A stretch of 64,000 nt of DNA. Source: Amoebophrya sp. A120. Taxonomy: Eukaryota; Protista; Dinoflagellata. Each line of letters starts with the position of its first letter. Within the stretch, counting starts at the first letter, position 1. Both the position numbers and the translations under genes were made by a program. This document shows positions 1-24,280 of this stretch, in pieces. The stretch spans positions 5,894,750 to 5,958,749 of the forward strand of contig CAJINV010000001.1 in the NCBI GenBank assembly GCA_905178155.1, given 5' to 3'. The notes below the pieces were generated by a model. That model made no database searches. It was not told the origin of the DNA and worked only from the letters and a program-made list of their open reading frames with translations.

Positions 1-2
1 TG

Positions 3-2506
3 ATGCTGAGTCCCGGACAAGAGCAGCGGGAGGTACTATCGAGTGCAGCGGGCTCGCCGGATCAGCCCCTGCAGCGAACGCCGGACCAGCATCGGCTGCA
101 TCCGGATGGTCATAATTTCGCCGGCTCTCCGCAGCCCAGCGCCAGTTTGTCCGCTACAAACGGCCCGCAGCAGCAACAGTCCTCTAGCGCGCACTCCCCG
201 GACCAGCTGAATCATGCGCTAGTTCTGGCCGAGGATCAGCCGTTTGCCTTGCAACAAGGATCTGGTCATCTGCCTTTCGTGCAATTGGCCGGCCGCCGTC
301 CACGGGTGATCGCGCCGAGGTGTGGCGACTTTATCTCTAGTAATAGACAAGTGAAGATGAACACAGCTGCAAATAACGGCCTGGCCGTCGACGTGCTGGG
401 AGGGGTGCCAAGTTCCGTCGCAAACGCGAGCAAGTTCTCCAACAACTCCAACGCGCCGAACAAGGCGTTTCTGAGTTTCCTCGACGGGCCGCGGATCCAC
501 ATCATCCGCAAGAACAAGCCGGTCACGTTATCCTGAGTAAAAACGTACCCACACCAGAATTGTAATGCAGATTTGCAAAGACAGGAAGACTTGTAACGCG
601 CATCCCCATGAGAGCCATTTCCAATCGTGTTTTGGAATTTGTGATGCTGTGAGCAGGATGAGCAGATGAGTCTGTGATGCGGCTGCACTTGCTAACCTGC
701 ACTACAGTGCAAAGCGCAACTTGTCATGCGTGACTCACAAAGCTCCTAGGGTTGTGCTGCAGAATCCCCATCCTGACTCGACGTGCTGGGAGGGGTGCCA
801 TTGCGCCATTTTTCCAGTAGCATGCCGCTCAAGTGCCAACAGGGCGAGAGCCCTGCAAGACCGGGCTGCGAATGTAAGAAATCGGGAAAAAAATGCCGTA
901 TACCTGCGCAATTCCTTATATGTGAATAACAAGGTGGGCGGGCGGGGTTCTTCACATTTTTGGAAACGCCCACCGCCCCGACACAAACAGTATTCTTGGA
1001 AGCGGAGGGGGGGCGCGGGACCCCCATCAAGTCGCCGCGGCGCGAAGCCGCAAATCCTTGGGCCACGTCTACCACCAGAAGTATTCCGCCCGGGGGCCGC
1101 TCCATGAGTCCATGAGTCCAAAAAAAAAATGGGGGCCGGGCAAAAAAAAAAAAAAATCCCCATCCTGACTCTGGTGTGGGTACGTTTTTACTCAGGATAC
1201 ACGTACTTGCTCGACATCCAGGATTTTTCCTGCGCGGATTGGCAACCCAACTGCCGAACAGGGACGCTGGCACTCAGCGCCGGCTCGCACGTGTTCCTCT
1301 TTCGGTTGAACCTCTTTCACGACAGTCTCGAGCAAATTGCGCAGTTTCGGCTGCCCAGCAACCGGCGGGTGCTGGACTTGAAGTGGTCGCCGGACGGGAG
1401 GAGACTGCTGGCCGTGGACTTCTTCGGCCACTACCATGTCTGGGAGCACGCATCGCGGTTGCAACGACCCATCACGCTGAAACCGCCACTGAAGGGCGTG
1501 CTGGCGGGACCTATATCCTGGTTGAGCAGCAAATTTTCGAAGAAAAATAAAAAAGGTGCAACATCATCTTCTGCAAAGAAGAACGACAGCGACAATAATG
1601 CAGCGGCGGAGAGAAATAAAAACTCTTCGGCCACTACTGGCGCTCCAGTATCGCAAATACTGTGGAACCCGGAAGGCAACATGTTCTGCGGGTTCTCGGA
1701 CAGTGGGCACCTGGAAATTTGGGACGCGGTCAGGTACGAGCGCGTGTTCGAAATGAGCGACTTGGATTTGAAGCCGCGGATCGCCGGAAACGTGCCCCAG
1801 CGAGGCAGCTTCGTGTTCGGGTTAGAAGGCGAAGAAGGCGGGAACATGTATGAGGTAAGAAACAGAGGCAGCACTTATGTCTCAATATGCTTTTTTTCTT
1901 CGTCAATGAATCAGCATGTGTGATTTAGTTCACATTTATCGTGACACCCAAACAATCAACCAAACCCATCACCAGGTTCCGTGGCGACTCCGTGACATGC
2001 GGGAGATTTTGGAGGTTCATCTAGGCTTCTCCCTTGAAAACGAACGTTTGATGGACGTGGTCATAGACGCGACGACGCACAGCCGCCTCGGTCTCGTCCT
2101 CGACAAAGGTGTCGCTGTCTGCGACCTCTGGACCTGCGCTAGAGAGGACCCAATGCGGGATCTGAAGCCGCTGGTATGTACTTTAGTTGCCTTTTAAATG
2201 ATAGAAGACCACTTTTCGGATGATATGCTGAAAGCAGCTTCACTTTTGAAAAAAGGAGAGATAGATGAATGATCACGCACGCAAATGTCCACCTCTACAC
2301 TGAAAAACGAACCAAACCAGGCATCCTGGCCAAGCAGATACGGCGAGACAGACCGATCGGGGAATTTGCTTCTTCGCGACACCAAAACCTACACAGCGGA
2401 CAATTTCCGTCCGCTGACGATGAACTTCTGCATGCACTCGAAGGACAGCGCCCTGGCGTCCGTTCTCTGGGAGAACGGAACTTTGGACACGTACGCCGTT
2501 TCTTGA
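3..2506 (+). CDS. WD40/beta-propeller-like protein, 5' truncated by the window; exons approx 3-528, 1205-1853, 1976-2173, about 2285-2506
   Basis: Removing 529-1204 joins KNKPVT|YLLDIQD. WD-like motifs VLDLKWSPDGRRLLAV and VSQILWNPEG...GHLEIWD. GT-AG intron 1854-1975. The last exon boundary is uncertain. Confidence 0.6.
529..1199. mobile_element. TIR introner, family A, containing a nested insertion (780-1154)
   Basis: TIR TATCCTGAGTAAAAACGTACCCACACCAGA / TCTGGTGTGGGTACGTTTTTACTCAGGATA; direct repeat CACGT at 524-528 and 1200-1204. Confidence 0.95.
780..1156 (+). mobile_element. Poly(A)-ended insertion flanked by a 17-bp duplication (possible retroposed or templated insert)
   Basis: AATCCCCATCCTGACTC at 763-779 and 1155-1171; A15 at 1142-1156; absent from family A copies at 4807 and 53905. 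Confidence 0.6.
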
Positions 2507-3236: not shown

Positions 3237-6200
3237 ATGGCGCTACCGCGGACGGTTCCGGTTGACGAGCTCGGCGTGCTCCACACCGAGCGCGAAGCGG
3301 TGGACCCGCTAGGAGCCCGGAACGCCACGACAGCGGCAGGCCCCTCCGCGATGGCGGACCACTCGCTAGTGCCAATCGTCCACCACACTTCTAGCGGAGT
3401 TGGCGTGAGTGCCACTGGTAGTGCTGTGGACCACCACCACCATGCGGCCGCGATCAACCGCAGAACCTACTCCCACGACCTGGTTCTGCGCGACCACTTG
3501 CTCGAGGCGTCGAATCACACGCCGTCGACGGTGCGGAACAACTACGACCGCTACAACAATTTGGATTTTTACCGCGGCGGCCAGCATCCCTACCGCGAGC
3601 CGTGGGTGGTCCTCAAGTCCCCGGAGGAGGGACTTTTAGTTACTTTCGACCCGGTGTCGCACAAGATCGAGCTGCTGCGCAACCACGACCACCACCAGGC
3701 CGGGCTCGACTACTGCCCGCTGTGCGGCCAGGTGCTGGGCGGCCACGGCCCGGCGGCGACGGAGCGGCACCGCTCGATGAGCGAGGCGGGCTCCTCGTCC
3801 GCGGGCGATGCGGCGGTGCGGATGGAGGACGTGATGGAGATCGACGAAACGCCAAATCTATCAAATGTAAAAATGTCTGGGTCTGGAAGATTGCCAGGTT
3901 TGTCATGCACATTTTGCGTGACTCCTGATGTCTGTGATGCATGCCCTAGCGTCACAGATTTTGTGAGGGCTTCCTGATGCTTATACCGCATCACAAATGC
4001 TCTTTCCTTGTAGCAAAACTTGGACTCTCTTTGCTGCTCATGCAATACAGATTTTTTTAGAATCCAAAATCAGCATGACAAGTTGGATTCTTCCAGACCC
4101 AGACATTTTTACATTTGATAAAATCTGGACGCCGCAGACTTCGACTCCTACCTCCTCGTGGAGGGCGCGGGAGGCAGCACCGTAGGAATGGACCACGACC
4201 ACACGCCCGCAGGCTCCGAAAACTCGCGCTCCCGAGGGGCCTCCGGGCGGCCACCGTTGTTCCCGACCAGCAGCGGCGGGGGGTCGACGAGCAGTCGTGG
4301 TGGCGGAAACAAGATGAACAGAAGAACTGCAACTGGGCCGGGAGGTGGTGCTACTGGTGGCTCATCCTCTTCCACGCGCGCGCGGTTCCACCCACCCAGG
4401 GCATCATCTTCGCAAGACCACAACATGATGAACACGACGACATCCACATCTTCTCGCAGCAATCACCGCACGAAATCCCCGGCGTTCAATCCGCAGAAAC
4501 GGAATCCACCTTCGCAGATGCATTCGCCGGACATCCGCGGCCTGCGGTCCCACTCCGAAACTTTTGTGGATCATCATCACCACAACTCCCACCACAACAC
4601 CCCGAATGCCGGCCCCTCGTCGTTTCGGCCCGCACGCGCGGCTCCATACCTGGCACACAACTACTTCACGCTTTTGAGTGCCGTACACGAAGAGGAACAG
4701 GAACTGCGCGAGCAGATGGACACAGCGGTCAATCAAGCCACATTGGACCACCACGGCGGAACCGGGGTATTTCCAGCCTTGGCGGACACCACGAGCGATT
4801 TCGATGTATCCTGAGTAAAAACGTACCCACACCAGAGTTGTAATGCAAATCTGCGTGCTGAAAATGTTTCTCATGCGGAGCCCCATGAGAAGCATTCTCC
4901 AGTCGTGTTTTGCAATTTGTCATGCTCCAATCAGCATGGTATGCTAGATCTGTGATGCTGCTGAGCTAGCTCAAACAGCACTACACTACGAATCCAAATT
5001 TGTCATGCAAAACAGCCAAAACTTGTGGATTTGTCTAGCCGATTCCCCAACTTGACTATGGTGTGGGTACGTTTTTACTCAGGATACGATGGCGGTGTAG
5101 TTCTGGATGACACGACGAGTTTTTATCCGTCCTTGCCCCCACCTCCAGTTCCCGCAGACAGCAGCAGAGAGAACGATGAGGATGACGAGATTCTTTCGCC
5201 GAAAAGCATACAAGACCGACCGGCACTAGAAGAAGGATCATTCCACCGCTCTAGATCCGCCTCCTCACGGAAGAGCCCGCTGCAAGAAGAGCCCGGTGTC
5301 GAGACACTGAACACCGCGAGCGCAAGGACTGGAAGTCTGCCCCGAGCCGAATCCATCCCTACTTTTGACACCAGTGCCCCGCCGGACACCAACCCGGGAA
5401 TCTTTCAGCTCACCACGGGTCCGGCCACGCGCGTGATAAAGCCGCTGGCATCTTCTGGCGGGTCGCAGTCCTCGTCGAAAACCGGACATGGTCCGGGGGT
5501 TGCAGCCGGACATGGTCCTCCGGTTGACTACAACGGTTTATTTGGACCACCTGCAAGAACCGCCACTACCACTTCTTCCGCAGGAGCTGCGACCAACACC
5601 GCAAGCACTAACGCGAAGCAGTACGGGCAGCTGCCGTGCGGCTTGATGAACGACGGCTACTACGAGCGGTTTTTCGTCGAGGTCGAATCTTTGGGACAGG
5701 GAAGTTTCGGGCACGTCTTTCACTGCCGGCACACCATCGACGGCGAGGCGCTGGGGGAGTTCGCGGTGAAAAAGGTCGCGGTGGGCGATGATCGCCAATG
5801 GCTGCGGAAAATCATTCGCGAAGTGAAGGCTTTCGAACGGCTCAACCACCCGAACATCGTGCAGTACAAGCACAGCTGGCTGGAATCCTGGCAGGTGAAC
5901 GCTTGGTGTCCCCGCGTGCCGTTTCTCTTCATTTTGATGCAGTACTGCAATCGGGGTAGTTTGCAGCAACTGATCGATCGCAACTACGAAAAGGTCTGTT
6001 TGGAACAACAGCAACAACAGGGGCGCGCAAAGACGGCCGCGAGTGGTCACCTGGTGCAACTGAACGCGCCCGCGGGCTGTAGCTCGCACAAACGCGGCTC
6101 GCAAGCCGTCGGCAGTAGTTCCTGTAGCAGTGCAGCGCACGCCAACATCCCGACTAGCACTGCGTCACAAAATAGCAGCGGATCGTGCGGCAAAAATGCG

Positions 6201-10928: not shown

Positions 10929-13900
10929 ATGCCGCCTCGAAAAGGCGGGCGCAAGCGGAAGTTAGCGGACGATGACTCCGAGGAACAGTCTCGTGCGCGA
11001 CAACCGAAGCAGGTCAAGGCCGAAATACAACCTGCCGAGGAGGCCGTACCTCCATTCGCGGAGGAACTACCCGCTGCCGGTGGAGAAGCAGAAAATGATC
11101 CTGCTGCCGTACAAGAAACACTTGCCGTGGAGCTCCAGCCAGACGAAGTCAATGAAGAACCAGACGCGTTTGCAGCAAACGAACAAGAAATTGCGGCGCC
11201 AGCTGCACAGCCGCAAGAGTCCGCCGAGTCGTCAAGCAGCTCGTCCTCCTCATCGTCAGCAGCTGCACAGGAGGAAGCACAACATGCGCCCGCCGCCGAC
11301 GAGGAAGCTGTGCCAGCAGACGCTGAAGTAGATGTCATGGAACAGCAGGTCGACCCCCCCGCAGAACCGCCTGTTTCGTCCAATGCAAAGCAGGTTGCCA
11401 GTGCTTCGAAGAAATCTTCCAATTCCTCCTCCTCTTCGTCCTCATCCAAAGCGGCGAACAAAAAAAAGGATCCGCCTTCCGCCTCAAGTAAAAAGAACCA
11501 GCCACTCTCTGCGGGCAAAGTTGTAAACAGTGCCAGCAAGGCGGTTTCGTTTAAGAAGCCGGCGAAGAAGGACACGATTGAAACGTTGCTGCCGCCGTTG
11601 GAAGAGGACGAGGAGAAGCCGGAGCCGAAATCCGCCATGAAGGGCAACAAGGCGAAAACGCCGATGAAGGTGCAGTTCTCGCAGGCCGAAGTCGAAGAGT
11701 TCTCCGCGTCCCAACTGAATGGCACGCCGCGACTGGACCCCGTGACCGGACTTCCGCTCAACAGCTCGGCTCCAACGTCAAGCCAGCAACTGCCCGTCCC
11801 AGGCGCGTCAGCAGCAGCATCCTCGTCTTCTCAACATCATACAGCTGCGTACTACAACAGTGGCAGTGCCTCTGCCCCGCCAGCCTCGTCTATGTTCATG
11901 AACAACAGCGCAGCCTCGGAGCAAGATCAAGAAGAATACCAGCAAGGACCTCCCCCGCCCAGTGGCACCGGTTCGAACGAGGGGTCCGTCCGGCCGTCCG
12001 CGGTTCCCGGGGCGGCGCCCAGCGCGCAGAACAACACGAGTTCCAATCCCTCGTCGGCAGCGTCGCCCGACCTGCCGGACAACAATGTGGTGCAGGTGGA
12101 GAAGGAGCCCGAGAAAAAGCAGCGCCTGATGATCGAGAAGATCGAGCTGGAGAACTTCAAATCCTACGGCGAGAAGCGCACCATCGGGCCCTTTCACCAG
12201 CTCTTTTCCGCGGTCATCGGGCCCAACGGGAGCGGGAAGTCCAACACCATTGACGCCCTGCAGTTTGCGTTCGGAAAGCGAGCCAAAGAGGTGCGACAAA
12301 ACAAGTTGTCCGAACTCATCCACAACTCCAAGGGGAAGGAAAATTTGAAAATGTGCCGGGTCTCCGTCTACATGATGGACATTTTGGACGAGCCCGACTT
12401 TGACGCAGACAAGCCGTACACCGTCGTGCCGAGTACTTCGTTTTTAAAAAAAATTTCAGTTTGTTATTTTTCTGTACCACTAGAATAGTCCTTGTGGTTT
12501 GCTGAAGCTTTTCCTTCGTGTCAGTACTTTGGCAGGTTATCAACAAAGTGAACTCGACAATAACCACACTCCCTTGCAGACACGGAGATCGTTCTAACGC
12601 GAGAGGCAACTTCGAAGAACGTGTCCACCTACTACCTAAACGGCAAGACGTCAAGTTTTACGGAGGTAACCGACAAACTGAAGGAACGCGGCGTGGATCT
12701 CGTGCACAACCGGTTTCTGATCCTGCAGGGCGAGGTAGAGGCCATCTCGCTGATGAAACCCAAGGCAGTGATATGAGGGTGCGCAACTGCTCTGTCTCTT
12801 TCTCATTTGTCATGCAAGAGTTCTGCCAAATTCTGTCTCTGACCCTTGCGGCCGTCTATGCTTGTATGGCAGGTTCTGGAAGTGTGGCCCAAACTGCACT
12901 ACAATCCGGGCGTTGATTTGTCGAGTAATTGCAAACGCGGCGCTTTACTTTCGAGGTGATTTCTGCTGCTACTAGCGCCGTCGCACTGCAAATATAGGAG
13001 CAGATGGAGTAGTTGCTTTTGCACTCTGATAGGCGAAGGAGGGCGGCGAAGACGGGTTTCTGGAATACCTGGAGGATATCATCGGCAGCAACAAGTACGT
13101 GCCGGCCATCCAGCAGGGAAACCGGGACCTGGAGCTGATCACAGGAACGCGGACGGACAAGTTGCGGATGTACCAGATGTCGGAGAAAGCGCGGGAGCAG
13201 ATCAAGCCGCAGTACAAAGAGGCACTGAAGTGGATCGAAACGAAAAAGCACCTGCTCATCAGCGAGGCCTACCGGAAGCAACTGGAGCGCAAGTCCTGCC
13301 GCGAGACCGTGACGGAGGTGCAAAAGTGCCACGACGACGCGGAAAAGCTGGTGCAGGAAAACCAGAAAAAGAAGGACGAAATCGTCGAGAAGCACAAGAT
13401 ATGCATTGCAAAAGTATCGTACTCGTCGTATAAATGCGAGTCTAGGATGACGGATCTGCCTTCTATCTTAGCTGAATCCGCACGACGAATTCATTTTTCT
13501 TCTAGGAAGATAAAATTTGTTACGCAAGTCGTACGAGTTGTACGATACTTTTGCATTTGATACAAGAAGTTGACGGATGAGCATCAAGATCTGCTGAAGG
13601 TTTACCGGGCGAAAATGGACGAGCTCAAGGGATGCCAGGAAAAAATGGCGCAATTCGAGATATCGCAAGAAAAAACTGTTTCACTGTGAACTTGTGATGC
13701 AGAAAATGGATCGCAGCCGTGTGTATCATGCCACACATGCAAGACAATGGATTTCTAGCTGTGTTTTCCCTTAGGAACCCCGCATGACAGATTTTCAGTA
13801 TCACGCGTAACAAACGAAACTTGTGATGCAGATTTTGCAAAATCACCACAGTGAAACAGTTTTTTCGTGCGATACGAGATGGACGACAAACAGTGCCAGC

Positions 13901-16900
13901 AGGAGAAGCTCGAAACCGAGCATATGCATTGCAAATACGTCTGGGTCTGGAACGCTGGAGCTTGTCATGCTAAATTCCAATCACGCAAAAATCTGTGTTG
14001 CCTGAGTACCAAAAGTGGCCCACTTTTGACCAAGCTGAGAGGGATTTTCTCATGCAGGGCAGGCATGATAGAGACCTCACAGAATCTGTCATGCTCGGTC
14101 CTGCATTCCAAACCTCATGGGCCATGGAAAACGTGCATGACAAGTCCTGCATTCTTCCAGGCCCAGACATATTTGCAGTTGATAGAGCAAAAGAAAAAGC
14201 AACTAGACGAAGAGATCCGGGAGGCGCAAAAGGAGCAGGCGGACCAAGCGAAGAATGCAGAGGAACAAGAAAAAAAAGTGATCCCGCAGGCCGAGCAGGA
14301 GCTGAAATCTACCGAGCGCTTTCTCGAGGTGCAGGAGGACAAACTGAAAAAATTCGAAAATTCCTTGTCAGGTTGGCTTTTTTTTTGCCTTTGTTGAACG
14401 CAAAAGACTAACAACGTTAAAAAACAAGCCTGCGCAGTGCTAGTGCTATACTAGAAATTTCTTATGGTTATGCGGGTGCAGCTGGTCGTGTATTTCTGGT
14501 GGGCTTTTTACTTGGTTGCCGGTGTTATTTTTCATTTTTCCATATATGTGAGGTGAATCGAGCCGGCTTCGCGAAGAGAAAATGCAGTGGGAGGCAAAGC
14601 AAGCGCCGCTCGCCAACAAGAAGCAGGAGCTATCCTGTGTAAAATATTGGAAGTGTTTGGCTATCGCTATCCTCCTTGTACTGCACACCGCTTCTGCACA
14701 GAGATTTCGCTCTCTTTGAATCATCATACATATAACTTCGTTTTGTCATTGGAAAGGAAGCGGCTGCACAATCAAGGATGAGGAAGGAGGTAGCCATCGC
14801 TATCCTTTCTTGACACACTTGATAAGGGTTGAGGGGTAAGCTGGAGATGCTGGAGTTCGAACGAAGTCAGCTCACAAAGCACGTGCAAGAAGCCCATGCG
14901 CGTTATCCTGTGAAAAATTATCGCATTGGTGAGTACAAGAAACATGATTTGCATTTGCAGGTCAGCAAAGAGAGGACTTACTACTAACTAAGGATTCTTG
15001 ATGTTCTCGAGCTCCTGTCTAAATGTTAGTCAGCATCGATCCCGGGAGATTACAATTCGATTTGCAGTTTTGCTGTGTCATCTTAAAAAAGACGACTTCG
15101 TCTTCACATCTCATGCGATAATTTTTTCGAACGCATAAACTGCTGGATAGGATGAATATGGAGCATGGTCAAGCCATTTATGAAACTGAAAAGTGCTGCA
15201 CCCGTGCCAAGGCAATTCTGCTATTTTGCGAGGAACATTCGAACACAGGAAATGTGATGAAGAAATTTGCGGCTTGCATGGCGCGGGTGGGCTTTGGCTT
15301 TTCCTTTTGATAGTGTCGGGCAGAGAAAGAAACTCCAGGAAGAAATAGATTTCTGTTCGGAGCAAGTATTGGTTGATTTGTCGTCTTTTTCTCCTCGCTT
15401 TCATATACAGTGTTTTGGTTTTCTTACCGCCCTATACGAACTTTGCTGGAGACCCCCCTAAGAGCAGATTTTAGGATTGCGTATTAAAACTGCTCGACAT
15501 TTCAGATACACGTGAAGACACCGCTGGTGCGAGAAGGGCAGAAACGGCTTGATGCTATCCGGCGTTAAACATCCGCATTGGCATCCCCACCTCAGCGTTT
15601 AGACACACACAAGCTTTTAATGCAAAATTTGCGTTTACAGAAACTGAAACAGATACAGATACAGTCCCGTCCGCTTCTTCCCGTCCGTGGCATCGAGGGC
15701 AACGCTGCGTGTGTGTATGTGTGTGTTTTGTAGGGTTTTTTTGCATGTTTGTCGTTGGATTTCCCAGAGCAACAGAATAGGAAAACGCTCCCGATGTTGT
15801 CGTGCAGGTTTATGTCCCGTCTGCTCAGAGGTGGTAGGTGATGGCCTTGTTGTGGCTGTCTTTGCACTACAGGATACAAAAGCTCGCGGAAATCATAAAG
15901 TCGAAGACGCTATGCATCAAGGAAATATGTCTGTGTTAGGATAGGAAGAATGCAACAGACTCGTGGTGCCAGGGCTAGCTCTGGCTAACACGAAGCTTTT
16001 CATTCTTGCATGAGCAGCAAAAGCAAAACCTATCTCCTTCATGCTATTAAGGATTTCTATACGCGGTATAAGACGAGAATAAGAAAGCATTTGTCAAACA
16101 CGTGCTGCTGTGGCTGCGCCTTGCATTGCAAATATCGCTGGGCACGAATAAGCTGCCGATTTTCCAGACCCAGACAGATTTGCAAGGCATAGACACCAAT
16201 TCTGAGCCACCTGAATCGCCAGTACGAAGAAGCGAAATACCAGGTGGAAGCTATCCTGAGTAAAAACGACCGCGCCCCAGAATTGTCGTGCAGATGCAGC
16301 AACATTTACATTCGTAATGCGCACCCCCATCATAGGTATGGGAGGCAAGGGCATTTGCGTTTTTCGCCGTGCTGGGCTGTAAACAGGACAACCGGGCAGA
16401 TGGCTTTGTGATGCGGCTGTCCTTACTAACCTGTAATGATGCGTGAGCGTGACTCCCAAATAGAAATAAAGTTCAGGGCGGAAACGTTTTTACACGGGAT
16501 AGAGGCCCACAGAAACACTACCACACGCATACAAATGTACTGATAATCTGTTTCACTGTGACGAATAATTTTTTCCACAGCTTGCATGCTCATAGTGTGA
16601 AGGCGAATGAAATCCCACTTGCCTCAGAAAAAAATCTGATATGCACCTACCGCAGTACCAATACCTCCTTTATCTTTACATGTTAACTTTGTTATGGTCT
16701 TTCGTTTTACCAAAGAGTTTCGTCGTGCACTCATCTCTTGCAATAGCGTCACAGGAAAACAGTTTTATCTTGGATACACACGAGCAAGCTGATGAAAGGC
16801 CTGTACGAAGTATCCGCTGGAAAAGCGCTAGCATCAAGTACAACAACGCAAAAATGATCAAACCGACATACAGTACGAGAATGCACTTTGAGCAAATGTA

Positions 16901-19900
16901 TAACGTGCCTGCCGCCTACGTGCTCGCCGATGAAAATGTGAAAATTTTCTTTCAGTGTTTTCTCATGTCTTGCAGCTCTATCGTGATTGCAGACGATGTG
17001 CTCATATGCTAGTGACATTCTGCGCGATAAAACGCGCGGCGCAAGGGCGACGTAGACTTCATTGACCGACTGGGCAACCTTGGTACAACAACCTCTAATC
17101 CGTTATACTTTGTTCATGAATATGTGTCTTGTCTTTCTCGTCGTCAGCTCAATAAAAAGGTGCACTGCATAAATTTGCTATGCGGGGCGTATGGTTCTTA
17201 AAATCCCACTATACCTGCACCTTCTTCACCAATTTGATGTATAAAAATCAGGTAAAATTGATGACAAGTACGACGTTGCGATAACCCAGGCGGGCGGCGG
17301 GAAGCATGCTTTTGACCAAATCGTGACCGAAACCGCCTCGCAGGGAACGGCGATAATCAAGTGGCTTAGCGAGAACAACGCGGGTCGCGCGCGAGTCATC
17401 GCCTTGGACCAGGTCAGCAAGGAGGGTTGGGACCGAAACCCGGGCAATTTACCCCGACCGCGGATCTTCGACATGGTTCGAGCCACAGAGGACCGACTCA
17501 GGCCCGCATTCTACTTGCTACTGAAAAACACGCTCGTGGTAGAAACTATGGACGAGGCAACTCAGGTACAACTACTTATTTTGATACGAATTCGATTGAT
17601 AAGTGTTGAAATACGAAAGTATAACGTTGCACGGTAGAATTTCGTAAAACTGAAAGAGCAAAAGAGATGAAAGCGTAATAGTTATTGTTGTAGCGACGCG
17701 GTCCCCTTCGTCATCGTCTGGCTACACCGCTAGCGTTGCAGCTGTGGCAGCGGACGTGCGCAACACTGTGCGAGAAAGATTCAGAGAACATGGATGTGAC
17801 AAGCTAAAATTTTTAGGTGAGCCGGCATAACGGTCGACACCGAGTGGTTACCCTCGATGGGGGGATCGTGGATCCAAGCGGCACGGTCACGGGAGGCGGA
17901 ATGCAGAAAGCGGAGGGAGGCGGGTTGTCGGGACCGGAGGCAAGTGGTACGACACGGACGAATCTAACTCGGAATCCCCTTTTCCTTGCATCTACTTGCC
18001 GAGCTGGTGTGCATTGTCAATTGCTTTTTCCTTTCATAGAGAACTAACTGAAACTGCTCTACTAGCTCTACTACTTAGAGAATGCGCTGTAGTAGTAGAA
18101 AATCACCAATTGTACCCATATGACCTTAGTATTGTGTTATCGTTTATTCATCCGTAGCAACTGCGTCTGCGTGTGGAGAAGACGGATCGCACTTCGCGAC
18201 ATGCTGTCCACCTTTCTTTATTCTGGCTTTTCATGGTGATGGTTGTGCGAGTTTGACAGTCAAGAAGAAAAAGCAACAAGTCGGAGGTGGGATTAAGTAC
18301 GTAGGGATTGGAGTACGTCTTCCACTGCACAACCCGACCGGCATATTCGGAGGCGGAGGTGGAGAAGATGAAAAAGGAACGGGACGAAGCCAGGGAATAT
18401 GTTGCAGGAGTGGAGAAGGAGCTGGTTGAGCTCACGCCCGTCGTGCAGGAGGTTTCTAATGAGCTCGAGCAGAAAACGCGGACGAAAAAACACTATGAGG
18501 CGCGGGTCCCCGACCTTGACAGAAATATCGAGCATTATGCCAACCGGATCGAGGAGGCAAAAACGATGCCCGTGCTCAACCCAGAGCAAGAAAAGGCGGT
18601 CTCGAAGCTGCAGACCGAGGTACTAGGTTCTTGTGTACAACGATTAATTGTCATCGTAGATCGATGTACATGATGTGCTACGTACAAAGCGTAATTTTGA
18701 TTAAGTTCACCGCCTGTTGTAACGGGAACCAGCTTTGATGGTACAGAAGTGAAGGCATGTAGTTCAACCAGCCGATAGCGCGGAGCGCTCGCATCCGCGA
18801 CTGATGCGGAAATAGACACGTTAAAAATTTGCATATCAGGTGTCCAAAGTGACGAGCGAAATCGGGAATGTGGACCTCGAATTAACGGAGGCCACCGACA
18901 AGGTGTCCGAGCTGACGAACGCGATTTTCAACGTGGGCGGGGAGGAGCTGAAGAACCTGCAGAACGAGGTGAACAACGTGAAGAAGAAGGTGGAGCAGCT
19001 CCGCAAGGGCCACATCAAGGCCAAAGGGCAGGTGGAGATCTTCCGCAAGAACGTGCAGGAAGCGGTAAAAAAGGAGGCGGAGTCGCGCAAGAAGCAAGAA
19101 AACGCGGAGCAGGCGCTGGTCGACCTGGAAAAGCTGGTGGAAAAAACCGAGAAGGAGGCCGGTGAGTGCCTGGAGCGCTTCCACTTGCTCATGACGGAAA
19201 CGTATCAAATGTAAAAATGTCTGGGTCTGGAAAAGTGTAGACTTGTCATGCAGATTTCCCATGACCCTTGAGGTCTGGAATGCGGGACTTAGCATGACAG
19301 ACTCTGCGAGGTCTCTGCCATGCCTATCCTGCATGAGAAACTCCCTTCCAACTTGGTCAAAAGTATAGAACAGCTTTTGGCACTCATGCAACACAGATTT
19401 TTGCATGCTTCAGATTTTTGCATGCTTCAGTTGGCCTCGCTGCCGATGCTGTCGGTAGCGGATGTCCGCGTTCCTTTAGAAGTATGGCGGGAAGCGAAGG
19501 TTCAGATTTACCATGACAAGTTGTAATCTTCCAGACCCAGACATTTTTGCAATTCATAGAACACAAGCCGACGAGCACCAGCGCAAGGATCTGGACGCTC
19601 AGCTTGCCAAAATATCACACAGAAAAAAGCTGGCAGGGCATATTGATATTTGTAATGCAAAAATAAACACACAGAAAAATCTGCATTGCATATCCGAAAC
19701 GGCATGCTATGAGGCCGCCCATGCCAGATTTTTCTGTGTATTTATTTTTGCATTACAAATATGCCCTGCCAGCTTTTTTCTGTGGGATACAAAATTGACG
19801 AAGACCAGAACGCGGTCGCAATGGTCTTGCTCGACGTCCAGGACTATCTCATTGAAGGCAAAAGTAGTACTAAATCGCATTCGTATGAACGTTGAAGAAT

Positions 19901-22900
19901 TCAAATTGCAAGAATCTTCTGACGAGACATTTAGACAAAATCTGCGAAGATGTCCTTGCTTCGATTTTTACCTGGACCTGCACGAGATAGTCGATGTTTT
20001 GAAAGCATTTGTGCCAGGAGTGCGAATTCCGTGATAAAAGTACAACTTTTGGGATGCATAGGGAGCAACTAAGCCGGACCAAGGAGAAACTCCAAGCCGC
20101 AACCGCTTCACTGGAGGACACGAATCGGAAATTGGAGCTGTTCCGCAAGGAGTACAAGGACCTTCCCGATGAGGATGAGGAGGAGGACGAGGAGGAAGAA
20201 GACCTAGACGTTATCAGGATGAATATAAGTGCCCCTAGAATGAAGTTGTTGTACCCCAGAAAGGCGACGTGTTTGTATATGCAAAAGTAGTTATTTTTAT
20301 TTTTTCCAGTGGAATCAATCATTTTCATTTTCATTTCCCATCTTGCATAGCACCACAAAGAACAATTCTCCCTGCGAATCTAAGCAAAAACTTGTTTGAT
20401 ATAAAAAGGCCTAGCCGCAGAAATGAAAATAATCGATCCCCAGCTCTGGCATTCGACGTGAGGCACTTGTTCTTTTTACTCTGATAGACGAGGACGGCAT
20501 TTACAGTGCAAAGTTCTACTCGCAGGGCTGGATTCGCAGCAACAAAGAGGAACAAGAGCGAATCGACCGGGAACGAGAGGCTGAGAAGGAAGCGAAGCGC
20601 AAGGCCAAGGAGGATGCGAAACGGAAGAAACAGTGGGAAATTAAGCACGGTCCGATTTTCGATGATTTTCAGGATGTCTGGCTTTCGGTGCACCCCGACG
20701 ACGACGAAGCCCTTCCGGAGGGTGCGGACGTGCCGGAGACGGGTCATCCGAGGCTCAGTTTGGAGGAGGTCATATTGCAATGAAAAATGCCACCACCCCA
20801 TAACCTGGCAGCATTTGCATTGCAAACCTCGCCAATGGAAAAAATTCCTCCTCTTGTATGTTTTAGCATGACAAATTTTTAATGCTGAATAGCTAAAATT
20901 TGTGTTGCGCAAGACCCCAGAACCAGAAGCAGCCGGGTCTGTCGTGCAAAAGACACGTTGCGCACATAGATTCTGCATCAGAAAGGCTCGTAGTCCTTTC
21001 ATCATGCAGGACAAAAAGCTTTCATTTGGCAACTTTGCATGAGAAACTTTTGCAAATGCTGGGGCGGGGGCATTTTTCATTGTAATAGGTCACGCGCTCC
21101 ATTCTCGGAATCCAGTCCAAGATGAAAACGTTGAACCAGCCCAATTTCCAGATTTTTATGCAAGACAAAAACTGTGTAAGTGTAACTCTGTAATGCAGAA
21201 CATGCATCAGAGTTACACCTGTCATGCCAGACAACCATGAAGTCCTCCTTTCACGTGTGTTTTCCCTTAAAAGCCGCGCATGACAGGCTTTCTCTGTCAT
21301 GTAGAGCAAATTTGTGATGCTGTCAACCAAAGAAAGTTACACTAACACAGTTTTTTTCTTGGATAATTTTTGCCGAGTATTCAATTCAAATCCGTTTTTC
21401 GTCCGCCCCCATGACAGACTCAAAAATATTCTGACGGGCACGGGATTTTTTTCTTCTTTTTAGTACGCATGGTTAGATGGCCTTAGTTGTCCTCAAACGC
21501 GATAGCCACAGGCGGTTACGACATTCTCAAATGAAACCACAAATTCAATCGATTTTCCAGATTTTCATACGTTTACTTTACACATGCGAAGGGATGGATC
21601 AACTTTTTCATCTCAAAACATCGACAGGTACAAGACACGGACAGAGGAGCTCCAGGCAAGAAAAGCGGAGTTTCGATTGGCGGACAAGGAACGGACAGAG
21701 ATACGGAGCAAGCTCGAGCAAGAAAAACTAAAGCGGAAACAAGACTTTCTGACGGGCTTCAATGTGATCAGCCTGAAACTGAAGGAGATGTACCAGCTAT
21801 GAAAAAAAGAAAACATGAGCACGTCCATAACTCTGCAGGTTTCATCGCAAGATGGTTTCAGTCCGCATGAGGATTTTTTCTTGCAGACTGAAGACATCGG
21901 GTCTTACACTTACTGCAGATGAAACACCAAGGAATGAAGCGCGTTTGCGCAGCTAGCTTAGCTTGACTCCGATGAACTTCTACGCATGAATATTGAGTTG
22001 CAAAAATGCACGAAAGTGATTGTGCTGATGTTTTTTTCCTGAATACCAGATGATCACTCTCGGGGGCGACGCGGAGCTGGAGCTAGTCGACACCTATGAC
22101 CCCTTCCAGGAGGGCGTCATGTTCTCCGTGCGACCAAAGTTGAAAAGCTGGAAACAAATCACGAATCTTAGCGGTAGTGAATTGCTATTTTTATCTACCT
22201 GTGCAACAGATGAAATTGAAAACGAATATCGTCCAAACGATGATCATGACCTGGGGATCGGTGATATAATTATGCGCAACATTCACATTGAGTTGACATT
22301 CAAATTTCTAAAAATAATTTAGGTGGCGAAAAGACCCTGGCGTCGCTCGCTTTAGTTTTCGCGTTGCACCACTACCGGCCCACTCCGATTTACTTCATGG
22401 ACGAGATCGATGCGGCGCTGGACTTCCGGAACGTGAGCATCATTGCCAACTACATCAAGCAAAACACGAAGAATGCGCAGTTCATCATTATTTCGCTGCG
22501 GAACCACATGTTCGAGCTCGCCGACCAGCTCGTGGGCGTGTGCAAGAAGAACGATCAGTCTATTATCAAATGTAAAAATGTCTGGGTCTGGAAGAATCCG
22601 AAATTTGTTATGCTGCTTTTGCATGACACAGAATGTCTGTCATGGAAGCCCTAGCATCACAGATTTTTAGAGGCCTTCCTGATGCCTATTCCGCATGAAA
22701 AACGCCCTCCACGCGTAGCACAAACCGGACTCCTCTTGCTAGTCATGCAATACAGAATTTTTTAGAGTCCAAAGTTAGCATCACAAGTTCCAACCTTCCA
22801 GACCCAGACATTTTTGCAATCCATATCTATGTCGGTGTCCGTAAACCCCGAGAAGTTCATTGCCGGGAAGAAAAAGAGAGGCGCGCTTGGCTACGAAGAA

Positions 22901-23605
22901 GACAAGAAGGTACAGCATCTGATCAAGCGGTTTCGGGACATCAAAAAAGACCTGAAAGGGCGAGGCAAGGAGCACATCTTGCCGGCAGTTTCCCGCCACG
23001 CCTCCCTATCAAGTGAAAAAATGTCTGGGTCTGGAAGGGTGTAAACTTGTCATGCAGATTTTCCATGACCCGCGAGGTCTGGAATGCGGGACTTAGCATG
23101 ACAGACTCTGCGAGGTCTCTGCCATCCTTATCCTGCATGAGAAACTCCCTTCCAGCTTGGTCGAAAGTGGACAGCTTTTGGCACTCATGCAACACAGATT
23201 TTTGTATGCTTCAGATTTACCATGACAAGTTACCACCTTCCAGACCCAGACATATTTGCAATTCATACTCCCCGCGGGGCAGCAAAAAGCCGACGAAAAC
23301 GAATCCCACAGCCGAGGACGTATCAAATGTAAAAATGTCTGGGTCTGGAAGATTCATGCTGTTCTTGCATGACACAGAAGGTCTGGCATGGAAGCTCTAG
23401 CATCACAGGTTTCGAGAAGCTTCCGCAATGCCGAACCCGCATGAGAAATCCCCCATTATGGCGACAGAATTGAGCAGCTTTTGCTACCGATGCATGAGAG
23501 ATTTTTCTGTGTTCGAAAAAGCGCATCACAAGTTCGGATCGTTCCAGACCCAGACATTTTTACATTTGATAGGACGCGGGAGAGAGCAACGCCAACGAGG
23601 AATAG
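10929..23605 (+). CDS. SMC4: Structural maintenance of chromosomes protein 4 (condensin subunit), about 31 exons
   Basis: ENFKSY, Walker A GPNGSGKSN, HNRFLILQGEVEAISLMKPK, EYLEDIIG, hinge RLGNLGKIDDKYDVAI and RVVTLDG..VDPSGTVTGGG, C-terminal head ITLGGDAELELVD, LSGGEKTLASLALVFALHHYRPTP, Walker B MDEIDAALDFRNVSI; stop at 23603-23605. Confidence 0.95.
12772..13031. mobile_element. Degenerate TIR introner in SMC4
   Basis: TATGAGGGTGCGCAACTGCTC at left, GAGTAGTTGCTTTTGCACTCTGATA at right; flanks AGTGA/GGCGA; frame restored (KPKAV|KEGGEDGFLEY). Confidence 0.7.
13400..13562. mobile_element. TIR introner, family C
   Basis: TATGCATTGCAAAAGTATCGTAC / GTACGATACTTTTGCATTTGATA; direct repeat CAAGA. Confidence 0.92.
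13661..13874. mobile_element. TIR introner, family D
   Basis: TATCGCAAGAAAAAACTGTTTCACTGTG / CACAGTGAAACAGTTTTTTCGTGCGATA; direct repeat CGAGA. Confidence 0.93.
13923..14184. mobile_element. TIR introner, family B (inverted relative to 19203 and 23007)
   Basis: Family B TIR; direct repeat GAGCA. Confidence 0.93.
14631..14824. mobile_element. Degenerate TIR introner in SMC4
   Basis: TATCCTGTGT...ACACACTTGATA; flanks GGAGC/AGGGT; removal plus 5 nt gives KKQE|LRGKLEMLEFE. Confidence 0.65.
14904..15137. mobile_element. Degenerate TIR introner in SMC4
   Basis: TATCCTGTGAAAAATTATCGCA / TGCGATAATTTTTTCGAACGCATA; direct repeat lost; frame restored (AHAR|LDRM). Confidence 0.7.
15157..15508. mobile_element. 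Highly degenerate TIR introner in SMC4
   Basis: TATGGAGCATGGTCAAGC versus GCTCGACATTTCAGATA; this left boundary restores the frame into KTPLVREGQKRLD, whereas the alternative TAT at 15179 gives a stop. Confidence 0.5.
15556..15876. mobile_element. Highly degenerate TIR introner in SMC4
   Basis: TATCC...GGATA termini; removal plus 5 nt gives KRLD[A/E]LAEIIKSKT. Confidence 0.55.
15911..16191. mobile_element. Degenerate TIR introner, family B-like
   Basis: Right end TTCCAGACCCAGACAGATTTGCAAGGCATA; flanks GACGC/GACAC. Confidence 0.8.
16252..16501. mobile_element. TIR introner, family A (diverged)
   Basis: TATCCTGAGTAAAAACG / CGTTTTTACACGGGATA; flanks GAAGC/GAGGC. Confidence 0.88.
16528..16776. 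mobile_element. Degenerate TIR introner, family D/G-like; left boundary uncertain
   Basis: CTGTTTCACTGTGACG near the left end pairs with CGTCACAGGAAAACAG near the right end; ends TTGGATA; left end reads CAT rather than TAT. Confidence 0.6.
16811..17029. mobile_element. Degenerate TIR introner in SMC4
   Basis: TATCCGCTGGAAAAGCGCTAGCAT / ATGCTAGTGACATTCTGCGCGATA; join GLYE|ARRKGDVDFIDRLGNLG restores the hinge motif. Confidence 0.75.
19203..19558. mobile_element. TIR introner, family B, with an internal insertion
   Basis: Family B TIR; flanks AAACG/GAACA; about 95 bp longer than the sister copy at 23007. Confidence 0.93.
19613..19789. mobile_element. TIR introner, family E (almost wholly palindromic)
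   Basis: TATCACACAGAAAAAAGCTGGCAGGGCATATT...; arms about 70 bp; direct repeat CAAAA. Confidence 0.95.
19845..20060. mobile_element. Degenerate TIR introner, family C-like
   Basis: TATCTC...CAAAAGTAGTACT / AGTACAACTTTTGGGATGCATA; flanks AGGAC/GGGAG; frame restored. Confidence 0.7.
20212..20486. mobile_element. Degenerate TIR introner in SMC4
   Basis: TATCAGGATGAATATAAGTGCC / GGCACTTGTTCTTTTTACTCTGATA; flanks GACGT/GACGA. Confidence 0.8.
20773..21087. mobile_element. TIR introner, family F
   Basis: TATTGCAATGAAAAATGCC / GGCATTTTTCATTGTAATA; direct repeat GGTCA. Confidence 0.93.
21157..21365. mobile_element. TIR introner, family G
   Basis: TATGCAAGACAAAAACTGTGTAAGTGTAACT; direct repeat ATTTT; collinear with the copy at 52768. 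Confidence 0.93.
21798..22045. mobile_element. Degenerate TIR introner in the SMC4 head domain
   Basis: TATGAAAAAAAGAAAACATGAGCAC / GTGCTGATGTTTTTTTCCTGAATA; flanks CCAGC/CCAGA; join KEMYQ|MITLGG. Confidence 0.8.
22564..22825. mobile_element. TIR introner, family B
   Basis: Family B TIR; direct repeat TCTAT. Confidence 0.95.
23007..23267. mobile_element. TIR introner, family B
   Basis: Family B TIR; direct repeat CTCCC. Confidence 0.95.
23321..23571. mobile_element. TIR introner, family B
   Basis: Family B TIR; direct repeat GGACG. Confidence 0.95.
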
Positions 23606-24280
23606 CGAGACGAACACGTTACACGTTCCGACAGAGACGCTGCAGCTCCCGATTAGTCTGGGTCTGATCCTAGAAGGAAAAGGACGCTATAGGGTTTTGT
23701 ATAGGAACACAGACAGGATAGATTGATATATCAACGGTCACTAGATTTCCATATTCTTTCAAACAAGGAGATGAAGACACAGTCAATGAGTAAAACTAAA
23801 ATGAGTATGGAAGCTTTTACGCGGATTTACTTTCAAAACAGGTTAAACTTAAAACAGCGAAAGAAATCAATGCTGGAAAACAAACAGCACTTCCGTTTGT
23901 CGTTTTTTTTTCGGTCTTCCGAAACAAAACAGGATTCGAGAGAGCTACAGGCTCCCGTTGATATCATTCCCGCTAATCAACGGAAAAAGTGGCGTTGCTG
24001 CTTGACTATTGTTGCAAGTTGTTGTGCCTATGACGTGCTTGACCTTTGCGAAAGCAAGCATGTTGACGTGCACTTGTTCGTTCTCTCTTTTTTGTTTTTC
24101 ATACGTATTTTTCTGGCGGTGAGAAAGAATTCAGATAAAAATCGCAATTTTCGTGTTTTTCCTGCTTCGTAGCAGTCTGCACTGCCATAGCCATTGCCAT
24201 ACCTAATCGAATATGACGAAACCGCAACTCGTTTTTTTGAGAGATCACGTCGTTGCGTTGCATGGTCTGGTTGCTACCGC

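What the first reader, a model, noticed from the sequence alone, without database searches (positions are those of the whole stretch)
14626..22050. Decayed target duplications suggest the splice register N-TAT...ATA-NNNN, aligned with GT-AG
Seen: where the two 5-bp copies differ, the protein favours bases 1-4 from the left copy and base 5 from the right. At 21798 (CCAGC/CCAGA) this gives the typical SMC4 YQMITLGG. At 16811 using the whole right copy gives TAA. At 20212 it gives LDED in an acidic tract. In this register the intron has T at +2 and A at +3, as in GTA. AG ends the intron in 5 of 24 perfect duplications and G in 11 of 24. At several old sites (14904, 15556, 16811) the repeat is gone but the 5-nt spacing persists. 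Inference: splice sites are measured from the TIR ends by a relaxed spliceosome, and the direct repeat is not needed. Only a few sites are informative.
Basis: inference. Interest (0 to 1): 0.78.

Follow-up and report, generated by a model that had tools for sequence, protein, structure and literature searches.

The report
Fixed splice register at transposon ends
In the condensin gene SMC4 of a parasitic dinoflagellate, transposon-derived introns are cut at one fixed place (one base before the element's TAT end, four bases after its ATA end) whatever the terminal bases are, which likely means the spliceosome reads the transposon's ends instead of the usual GT-AG rule.

Summary
The window encodes SMC4 of Amoebophrya sp. 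A120. Its introns are the known TAT…ATA introners with 5-bp target duplications (Farhat 2021). That paper left the splice borders 'variable/unknown'.

Spliced transcript contigs settle them for this gene. At 12 of 12 testable mismatched duplications, the mRNA fits bases 1-4 from the left copy and base 5 from the right (next best registers 8/12 and 5/12). At 14904 and 15556 the junction is unique. A DNA run confirms the flanks at 9 of the 12. Three in-frame GT-AG alternatives within 3 nt go unused. TAT/ATA changed at 1 of 78 bases in old elements, while duplications differ at 29 of 65.

Not supported: AG enrichment at the intron end (12/147 in 141 further loci, p=0.44), and site 15157 (the real site is 15179).

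Likely mechanism: a relaxed spliceosome reads TAT as +2..+4 of this gene's usual GTAY donor and measures the 3' cut from ATA, possibly a branch adenosine. This part is untested. The evidence is one gene, one study, majority isoforms only.

The parts
10929..23606 (+). SMC4 (condensin) gene with 31 introns: 22 TIR introners, 8 GT-AG, 1 GT..CC; the end coordinate is approximate
   Evidence: P0001 maps exon by exon to 10929-20170; Pfam SMC_N and SMC_hinge; spliced contigs run to ~23985; in-frame stop after the last exon
12771..13035 (+). old introner, A-TAT…ATA-GGCG; a same-length GT-AG junction (k=1) is excluded
   Evidence: joint 12769->13035, k3-5; alternative shown; related copies have perfect 5-bp duplications
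14630..14828 (+). old introner, C-TAT…ATA-AGGG
   Evidence: joint 14628->14828, k3-4
14903..15141 (+). old introner, T-TAT…ATA-AACT; flanks differ at 4 of 5 bases
   Evidence: unique joint 14902->15142, k=4
   Evidence: joint 15176->15316, k3-4
15555..15880 (+). old introner, C-TAT…ATA-CAAA; little predicted terminal stem
   Evidence: unique joint 15554->15881, k=4; the annotated protein allows only this junction; folding
15910..16195 (+). introner, C-TAT…ATA-GACA; copies differ at base 4
   Evidence: joint 15909->16196, k4-5
16251..16505 (+). introner, C-TAT…ATA-GAGG; a GC-AG reading (k=3) also fits
   Evidence: letters between the joint, k3-5
16518..16780 (+). old introner with TAC instead of TAT, C-TAC…ATA-CACA; no predicted terminal stem
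16810..17033 (+). old introner, G-TAT…ATA-AAAC
   Evidence: joint 16809->17034, k4-5
17947..18335 (+). GT..CC intron, readable as G-TAC…ACA-ACCC; no TIR or predicted terminal stem, no AG
   Evidence: joint 17946->18336; folding; no hit among introner loci
19202..19562 (+). introner, G-TAT…ATA-GAAC; an in-frame GT-AG alternative of 358 nt is unused
   Evidence: joint 19198->19560, 361 nt, k1-4
19844..20064 (+). old introner, C-TAT…ATA-GGGA; TIR match only 5 of 20
   Evidence: joint 19840->20062, k1-4
20211..20490 (+). introner, T-TAT…ATA-GACG; length shown, register not
   Evidence: 280 nt from record coordinates
21797..22049 (+). introner, C-TAT…ATA-CCAG, at YQ|MITLGG
   Evidence: joint 21790->22044, k<=4
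13399..23575 (+). nine perfect-duplication introners (TAT at 13400, 13661, 13923, 19613, 20773, 21157, 22564, 23007, 23321); length = element + 5, register ambiguous; at 23321 a 253-nt GT-AG alternative is unused

Best explanation
The TAT…ATA introners of this SMC4 gene are removed in one fixed register, N-TAT…ATA-NNNN, which restores one copy of the target site, and this is likely done by the major spliceosome reading the two terminal triplets as sequence signals instead of G at +1 and AG at the end. SHOWN: the register, independence from the direct repeat, the skipping of nearby GT-AG sites, and conservation of the triplets. INFERRED: TAT is read as +2..+4 of the donor, like the GTAC/GTAT starts of this gene's canonical introns. 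ATA anchors the 3' cut four bases further on, most simply because one of its adenosines (-7 or -5) is the branch point, as in species with a fixed branch-to-acceptor distance. The TIR hairpin would help young elements by bringing the ends together but would not be essential. Because the ends are inverted repeats, an insertion in either orientation would carry both signals and be spliced out cleanly.
For: k=4 fits 12/12 informative sites, two of them uniquely. DNA run X5 shows no differing letters over 12590-13424 and 14155-17240, so those flank mismatches are genomic. Triplets changed at 1/78 bases in 13 old elements, against 29/65 duplication mismatches and 57/117 unpaired TIR positions 4-12 (Fisher p=0.004 and 2e-8). 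There is no compensatory change; the only variant is TAC, the same as canonical GTAC. Splicing is in register with <=1.3 predicted in-register end pairs at 15556, 15911, 16519 and 19845, and with 4-nt bulges in the stem at 12772, 15179 and 20212. The GT..CC intron at 17947 has A-Y-A at -7..-5 with no stem. 6/8 canonical introns start GTAY. All nine predominant A120 splice-site classes in Farhat Table S4 have T at +2, and A25 classes start TT with IRs starting TTA. U2, U4, U5, U6, Prp8 and most snRNP proteins were reported in A120. Fixed short branch-to-AG distances exist in Yarrowia, Trichomonas and Giardia (PMC2483917).
Against: No lariat, branch point or spliceosome dependence was tested. 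ATA is simply the complement of TAT, so its conservation could reflect a 3-bp closing helix. No U2-type branch consensus: T two bases before A(-7) in only 10 of 22 introns (counted by eye). Canonical introns lack a shared ATA at -7..-5 (1 of 8), so two 3' modes must coexist. [quoted passage not shown] The evidence is one gene, RNA contigs of one study, majority isoforms only. Folding predictions are weak evidence.
Confidence: 0.5

Rival explanations
1. Hairpin ruler: the spliceosome, or an added RNA-binding subunit replacing U1, recognises the closing helix formed by the two ends and cuts 1 nt 5' and 4 nt 3' of it; branching, if any, occurs elsewhere.
For: 16 of 22 TIR introns keep >=10 predicted in-register end pairs, while the 8 canonical introns have <=0.9. 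The geometry is fixed relative to the helix end. Farhat proposed that hairpins join the exon boundaries.
Against: Four spliced elements have <=1.3 in-register pairs, and TAT:ATA pairing probability is <=0.01 at 14631, 14904, 15911, 16519 and 19845. No compensatory triplet changes were seen; the 17947 intron has no stem.
Confidence: 0.27
2. A spliceosome-independent endonuclease/ligase removes these introns, as suspected for euglenid nonconventional introns, recognising the TAT/ATA ends at fixed offsets.
For: Both terminal dinucleotides are free; canonical GT-AG sites next to the cut are ignored; U1 was not found. Euglenid TIR introns with fixed-offset pairing leave as circles without a lariat (review).
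Against: T+2/A+3/Y+4 match the canonical donor of the same gene, which an unrelated enzyme would not need. The stemless GT..CC intron looks intermediate between the two classes. The tunicate Fritillaria shows a spliceosome can adapt to non-GT/AG introns.
Confidence: 0.16
3. The register is not fixed: cuts vary between sites or molecules, or RNA editing or assembly consensus produced the apparent agreement.
For: Contigs show majority forms only (note). Farhat call the borders variable and report possible editing near 2-4% of them. Gozashti Dataset S2 lists mixed duplication lengths and mechanisms for A120 families.
Against: 12/12 agreement with two unique junctions, identical in runs X1, X2 and X4. 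Perfect duplications (269 of 364 elements) make aligner borders ambiguous, which would explain the published variability.
Confidence: 0.07

Closest known systems
Amoebophrya A120 introner elements (Farhat et al. 2021, PMC7789003)
   Same: Same organism label; IRs starting TAT, 3-5-nt direct repeats, non-canonical ends, repeated families.
   Different: [quoted passage not shown] Here one register fits all informative sites and the duplication flush with the TIR is 5 bp (269/364).
TIR introners of Aureococcus, Florenciella, Symbiodinium, Polarella (Gozashti 2022, PMC9860276; review PMC11282704)
   Same: Non-autonomous TIR elements with target duplications; splice sites lie within the duplication and mRNA length is restored.
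   Different: Those co-opt or carry canonical GY/AG dinucleotides. Here neither end needs them, and available GT-AG sites are skipped.
Euglenid nonconventional introns (review PMC11282704)
   Same: TIR pairing at fixed offsets from both ends, non-canonical junctions, duplication-like repeats, unknown mechanism.
   Different: Their pairing is +4..6 with -8..-6 (CAG/CTG) with Y|R junctions; here it is +2..4 with -7..-5 (TAT/ATA), and the 5' triplet matches the canonical donor. Circular versus lariat product is untested here.
Fritillaria borealis non-canonical introns (bioRxiv 2025.08.15.670264; review PMC11282704)
   Same: MITE-derived introns outside the GT-AG rule, removed by an adapted spliceosome.
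   Different: Preferred ends AG-AC/AG-AT, duplicated U2AF and altered snRNA m6A. Here both terminal dinucleotides are free; splicing factors were not examined.
Introns with anchored branch points (Yarrowia, Trichomonas, Giardia; PMC2483917)
   Same: The 3' cut lies at a fixed short distance from an upstream motif.
   Different: They keep a full ACTAAC motif and AG. Here only ATA is constant, and that it is a branch point is inferred.

Membership tests
A120 introner elements | terminal inverted repeats starting TAT | tested here: met
   21 of 22 start TAT (one TAC); 22 of 22 end ATA
A120 introner elements | direct repeat at the borders | tested here: met
   perfect 5-bp repeat in 269/364 elements; decayed in 13/22 in SMC4; relatives of the old 12772 and 21798 elements have perfect repeats (7 of 8 hits had a called element, all perfect)
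A120 introner elements | repeated copies elsewhere | tested here: met
   141 loci with the TIR motif; copies up to 97% identical. Only 3 of 12 old introns queried had a hit
A120 introner elements | removed from mRNA | tested here: met
   joints in contigs of X1, X2, X4; none of these joints in X5
canonical U2 (GT/GC-AG) introns | GT/GC start and AG end | tested here: not met
   0 of 22 TIR introns are GT-AG in the k=4 register; unique junctions are TT..CT and CT..AA
spliceosomal introns (any) | lariat with a 2'-5' branch; snRNP dependence | not testable with these tools
   only assembled contigs cover the gene; raw-read runs X8 and X9 gave 11 and 0 reads
euglenid-type nonconventional introns | pairing +4..6 with -8..-6 and Y|R junctions | tested here: not met
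   pairing is +2..4 with -7..-5; terminal bases are free
euglenid-type nonconventional introns | excised as full-length circles | not testable with these tools
   no small-RNA or raw reads available
anchored-branch-point introns | U2-complementary branch motif at a fixed distance | tested here: inconclusive
   A at -7 and -5 in 22/22, but T two bases before A(-7) in only 10/22 (by eye)

The most novel reading that the evidence does not exclude
The A120 spliceosome has a second mode that ignores both terminal dinucleotides and uses a transposon's inverted end twice: as the donor (+2..+4) and, read on the other end, as a branch point only 5-7 nt from the 3' cut. Any insertion of these elements, in either orientation and at any target, becomes a perfect intron, and strain A25 (introns starting TT-A) uses the same rule.
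Probability: 0.35. Interest if true: 0.88.

Novelty: new variant of a known kind. Interest (0 to 1): 0.7.

Why it matters
About two thirds of A120 introns are non-canonical, U1 snRNA was not found, and how they are spliced was left open. A single register turns 'no splicing signature' into a precise rule: +1 free, T-A-Y at +2..+4, A-T-A at -7..-5, last four bases free. The rule corrects the annotation of tens of thousands of introns if it holds genome-wide. It explains why any target site is tolerated. It also names the exact bases to test for branching, U6/U5/Prp8 compensation or a new enzyme. A spliceosome indifferent to both G+1 and AG would bear on how terminal-nucleotide recognition works in general.

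Tried and rejected
No whole genome is held, so there was no genome-wide test and no snRNA or Prp8 inspection. No Rfam match in the window. No run is on record as RNA holder. X1, X2 and X4 are treated as RNA because they skip canonical GT-AG introns exactly. Raw-read runs X8 and X9 gave 11 and 0 reads. One search showed 15 joints and hid 19; one search showed 15 and hid 42.

Searches for annotated proteins across further junctions found nothing (SMC4 second half, L030). One search returned only two homologues (46% and 38%) of the L061 gene. One keeps R in 'DPRGQG', which fits k<=4 at one site; this is a weak hint only.

AG/G enrichment at the intron end was rejected on 147 oriented perfect duplications. 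These were kept from 243 outside the window by a strand-score filter; the unfiltered 243 give AG 17. The strand caller called 26 of 28 window elements as +. The direction of mutation in imperfect duplications (31 sites) showed no usable pattern by eye and was dropped. Several 5-mismatch calls in the loci are inner TAT/ATA pairs, not element ends, and were not used. The scan's earlier notes held nothing.
Full report
IDENTITY. An exon at 18840-19196 retrieves one protein, P0001, named Amoebophrya sp. A120 by its sources. Its 1377 residues map exon by exon to 10929-20170, and it carries SMC_N and SMC_hinge domains. Spliced contigs continue to the C-terminal ATPase exon and the 3' end. The gene has 31 introns: 8 GT-AG, 22 bounded by TAT…ATA (one TAC…ATA), and one GT..CC. 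Farhat et al. 2021 described these elements: A120 inverted repeats start with TAT, with direct repeats of 3-5 nt. Their Fig. [quoted passage not shown]

TEST OF THE REGISTER. Runs X1, X2 and X4 are not on record as RNA, but their contigs skip the canonical introns exactly. Run X5 shows none of these joints and matches the window without differences over 12590-13424 and 14155-17240, which covers 9 of the 12 informative sites. With k the number of duplication bases taken from the left copy, the joints allow: 12772 3-5; 14631 3-4; 14904 4; 15179 3-4; 15556 4; 15911 4-5; 16252 3-5; 16519 1-5; 16811 4-5; 19203 1-4; 19845 1-4; 21798 up to 4. Only k=4 fits all 12; k=3 fits 8 and k=5 fits 5. Independent uniform cuts would give this with probability 1.6e-4 after correcting for six registers. 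At the two unique junctions TAT sits at +2..+4 and ATA at -7..-5; the chance for both from intron composition is about 1e-8. The thirteenth mismatched site, 20212, has the right length (280 nt = element + 5) but its register was not shown. The annotated protein agrees at every junction it covers and allows only k=4 at 15556; it may rest on the same RNA, so it is not independent.

CANONICAL ALTERNATIVES ARE IGNORED. At 12772 a GT-AG junction of the same length exists (k=1) and the mRNA excludes it. At 19203 and 23321 the intron starts GT and an in-frame AG lies three bases before the cut, yet the contigs skip 361 and 256 nt rather than 358 and 253. At 16252 (GC-AG) and 20773 (GT-AG) a canonical reading cannot be excluded.

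WHAT IS CONSERVED. In the 13 old elements the six terminal bases changed once in 78, while duplication copies differ at 29 of 65 positions and TIR positions 4-12 are unpaired at 57 of 117. These introns were defined by RNA joints, not by the triplets. Relatives of two old elements keep perfect 5-bp repeats, so the mismatches look like decay; 9 of 12 old introns queried had no relative in the fetched loci. Folding predicts long end-to-end stems for most elements, but nearly no in-register pairing for 15556, 15911, 16519 and 19845, and 4-nt bulges below the triplet at 12772, 15179 and 20212. The GT..CC intron at 17947 reads G-TAC…ACA-ACCC with no stem.

WHAT FAILED. G at base 4 is 54 of 147 (p=0.056) and a full GT-AG arises in 2 of 147. 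Those loci come from another assembly and their strand is inferred. At 14631 and 16252 the exon copy has AG and the intron copy GG (direction of change unknown). Site 15157 is exon. So the parallel with GT-AG holds for +2/+3 only.

MECHANISM. Shown: fixed offsets, free terminal bases, no need for the repeat. Inferred: 6 of 8 canonical introns here begin GTAY, so N-TAT is the same donor without its G. All nine predominant A120 classes in Farhat's Table S4 have T at +2, and A25's begin TT with IRs starting TTA. For the 3' end, the simplest spliceosomal ruler is a branch adenosine at -7 or -5. Irimia and Roy report branch-AG gaps of 2-4 nt, which place the branch A at -6 to -8 (which A is the branch is recalled). 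Against this, ATA is also just the complement of TAT, no U2-type consensus surrounds it (10 of 22), and only 1 of 8 canonical introns has it. I give 0.5 to triplet-reading by the spliceosome, 0.27 to a hairpin ruler, 0.16 to a separate nuclease/ligase and 0.07 to no fixed register. Confidence in the register itself is about 0.93 for this gene and about 0.85 genome-wide.

LITERATURE SEEN. PMC7789003: abstract, sections 10, 11, 16 and 32, passages, supplement part 3 and figure legends; figures 3 and S19-S25 are images I could not see and may show part of this pattern. PMC12130899: passages, and Dataset S2 rows for 22 of 58 A120 and 28 of 60 A25 families, which list mixed duplication lengths and mechanisms and no fixed register; two supplement files were not searched. 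PMC11282704: passages and section 6. PMC9860276, PMC12005148, PMC11453091, PMC2483917 and bioRxiv 2025.08.15.670264: passages only. Roy 2023 and Henriet 2019 were seen only through reviews. Five searches found no statement of this register; subscription papers and theses are not covered.

VERDICT. The elements are known. The fixed register and the skipping of adjacent GT-AG sites appear not to be stated in what I could read, and they make an open splicing puzzle directly testable. Limits: one gene, one RNA study, majority isoforms only, mechanism untested. Novelty: new variant of a known kind; interest 0.7.

Noticed in passing
window 17947-18335: RNA-supported GT..CC intron with no TIR and no AG; A-C-A at -7..-5. 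It may be a very old introner or a canonical intron that lost its AG.
   Followed up: partly
window 16507-16517 and 21370-21376: Micro-exons of about 12 and 7 nt between adjacent introns, seen as letters between joints.
   Followed up: partly
window 15525-16225 and 16781-17063: Unspliced contigs across the old introns 15556, 15911 and 16811 in X1 (16811 also in X2; depth 5-23 vs about 58-84 for spliced forms). Old elements may splice less efficiently, or this is pre-mRNA or DNA.
   Followed up: no
window 20170: The public gene model P0001 ends at an acidic GAG-rich tract although contig X1 record 4 runs on to the C-terminal ATPase exon; the annotation seems to split SMC4.
   Followed up: partly
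nine perfect-duplication elements in SMC4: TIR positions 4-5 pair in only 4 of 9 young elements while positions 1-3 always pair, so the terminal triplet is set off from the main stem by a small internal loop.
   Followed up: no
window 529-1199: A 671-nt element of the same family as the 280-nt element at 4807, with extra internal sequence, possibly a nested insertion.
   Followed up: no
L001-L141: Oriented perfect duplications have A at base 5 in 36% and T at base 4 in 9% of 147; a mild target or selection bias, untested.
   Followed up: no
window 10929-23606 versus the rest: SMC4 holds 22 introners, 13 with decayed duplications, while other genes in the window mostly show perfect ones or none; old elements elsewhere may be missed without RNA.
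   Followed up: no
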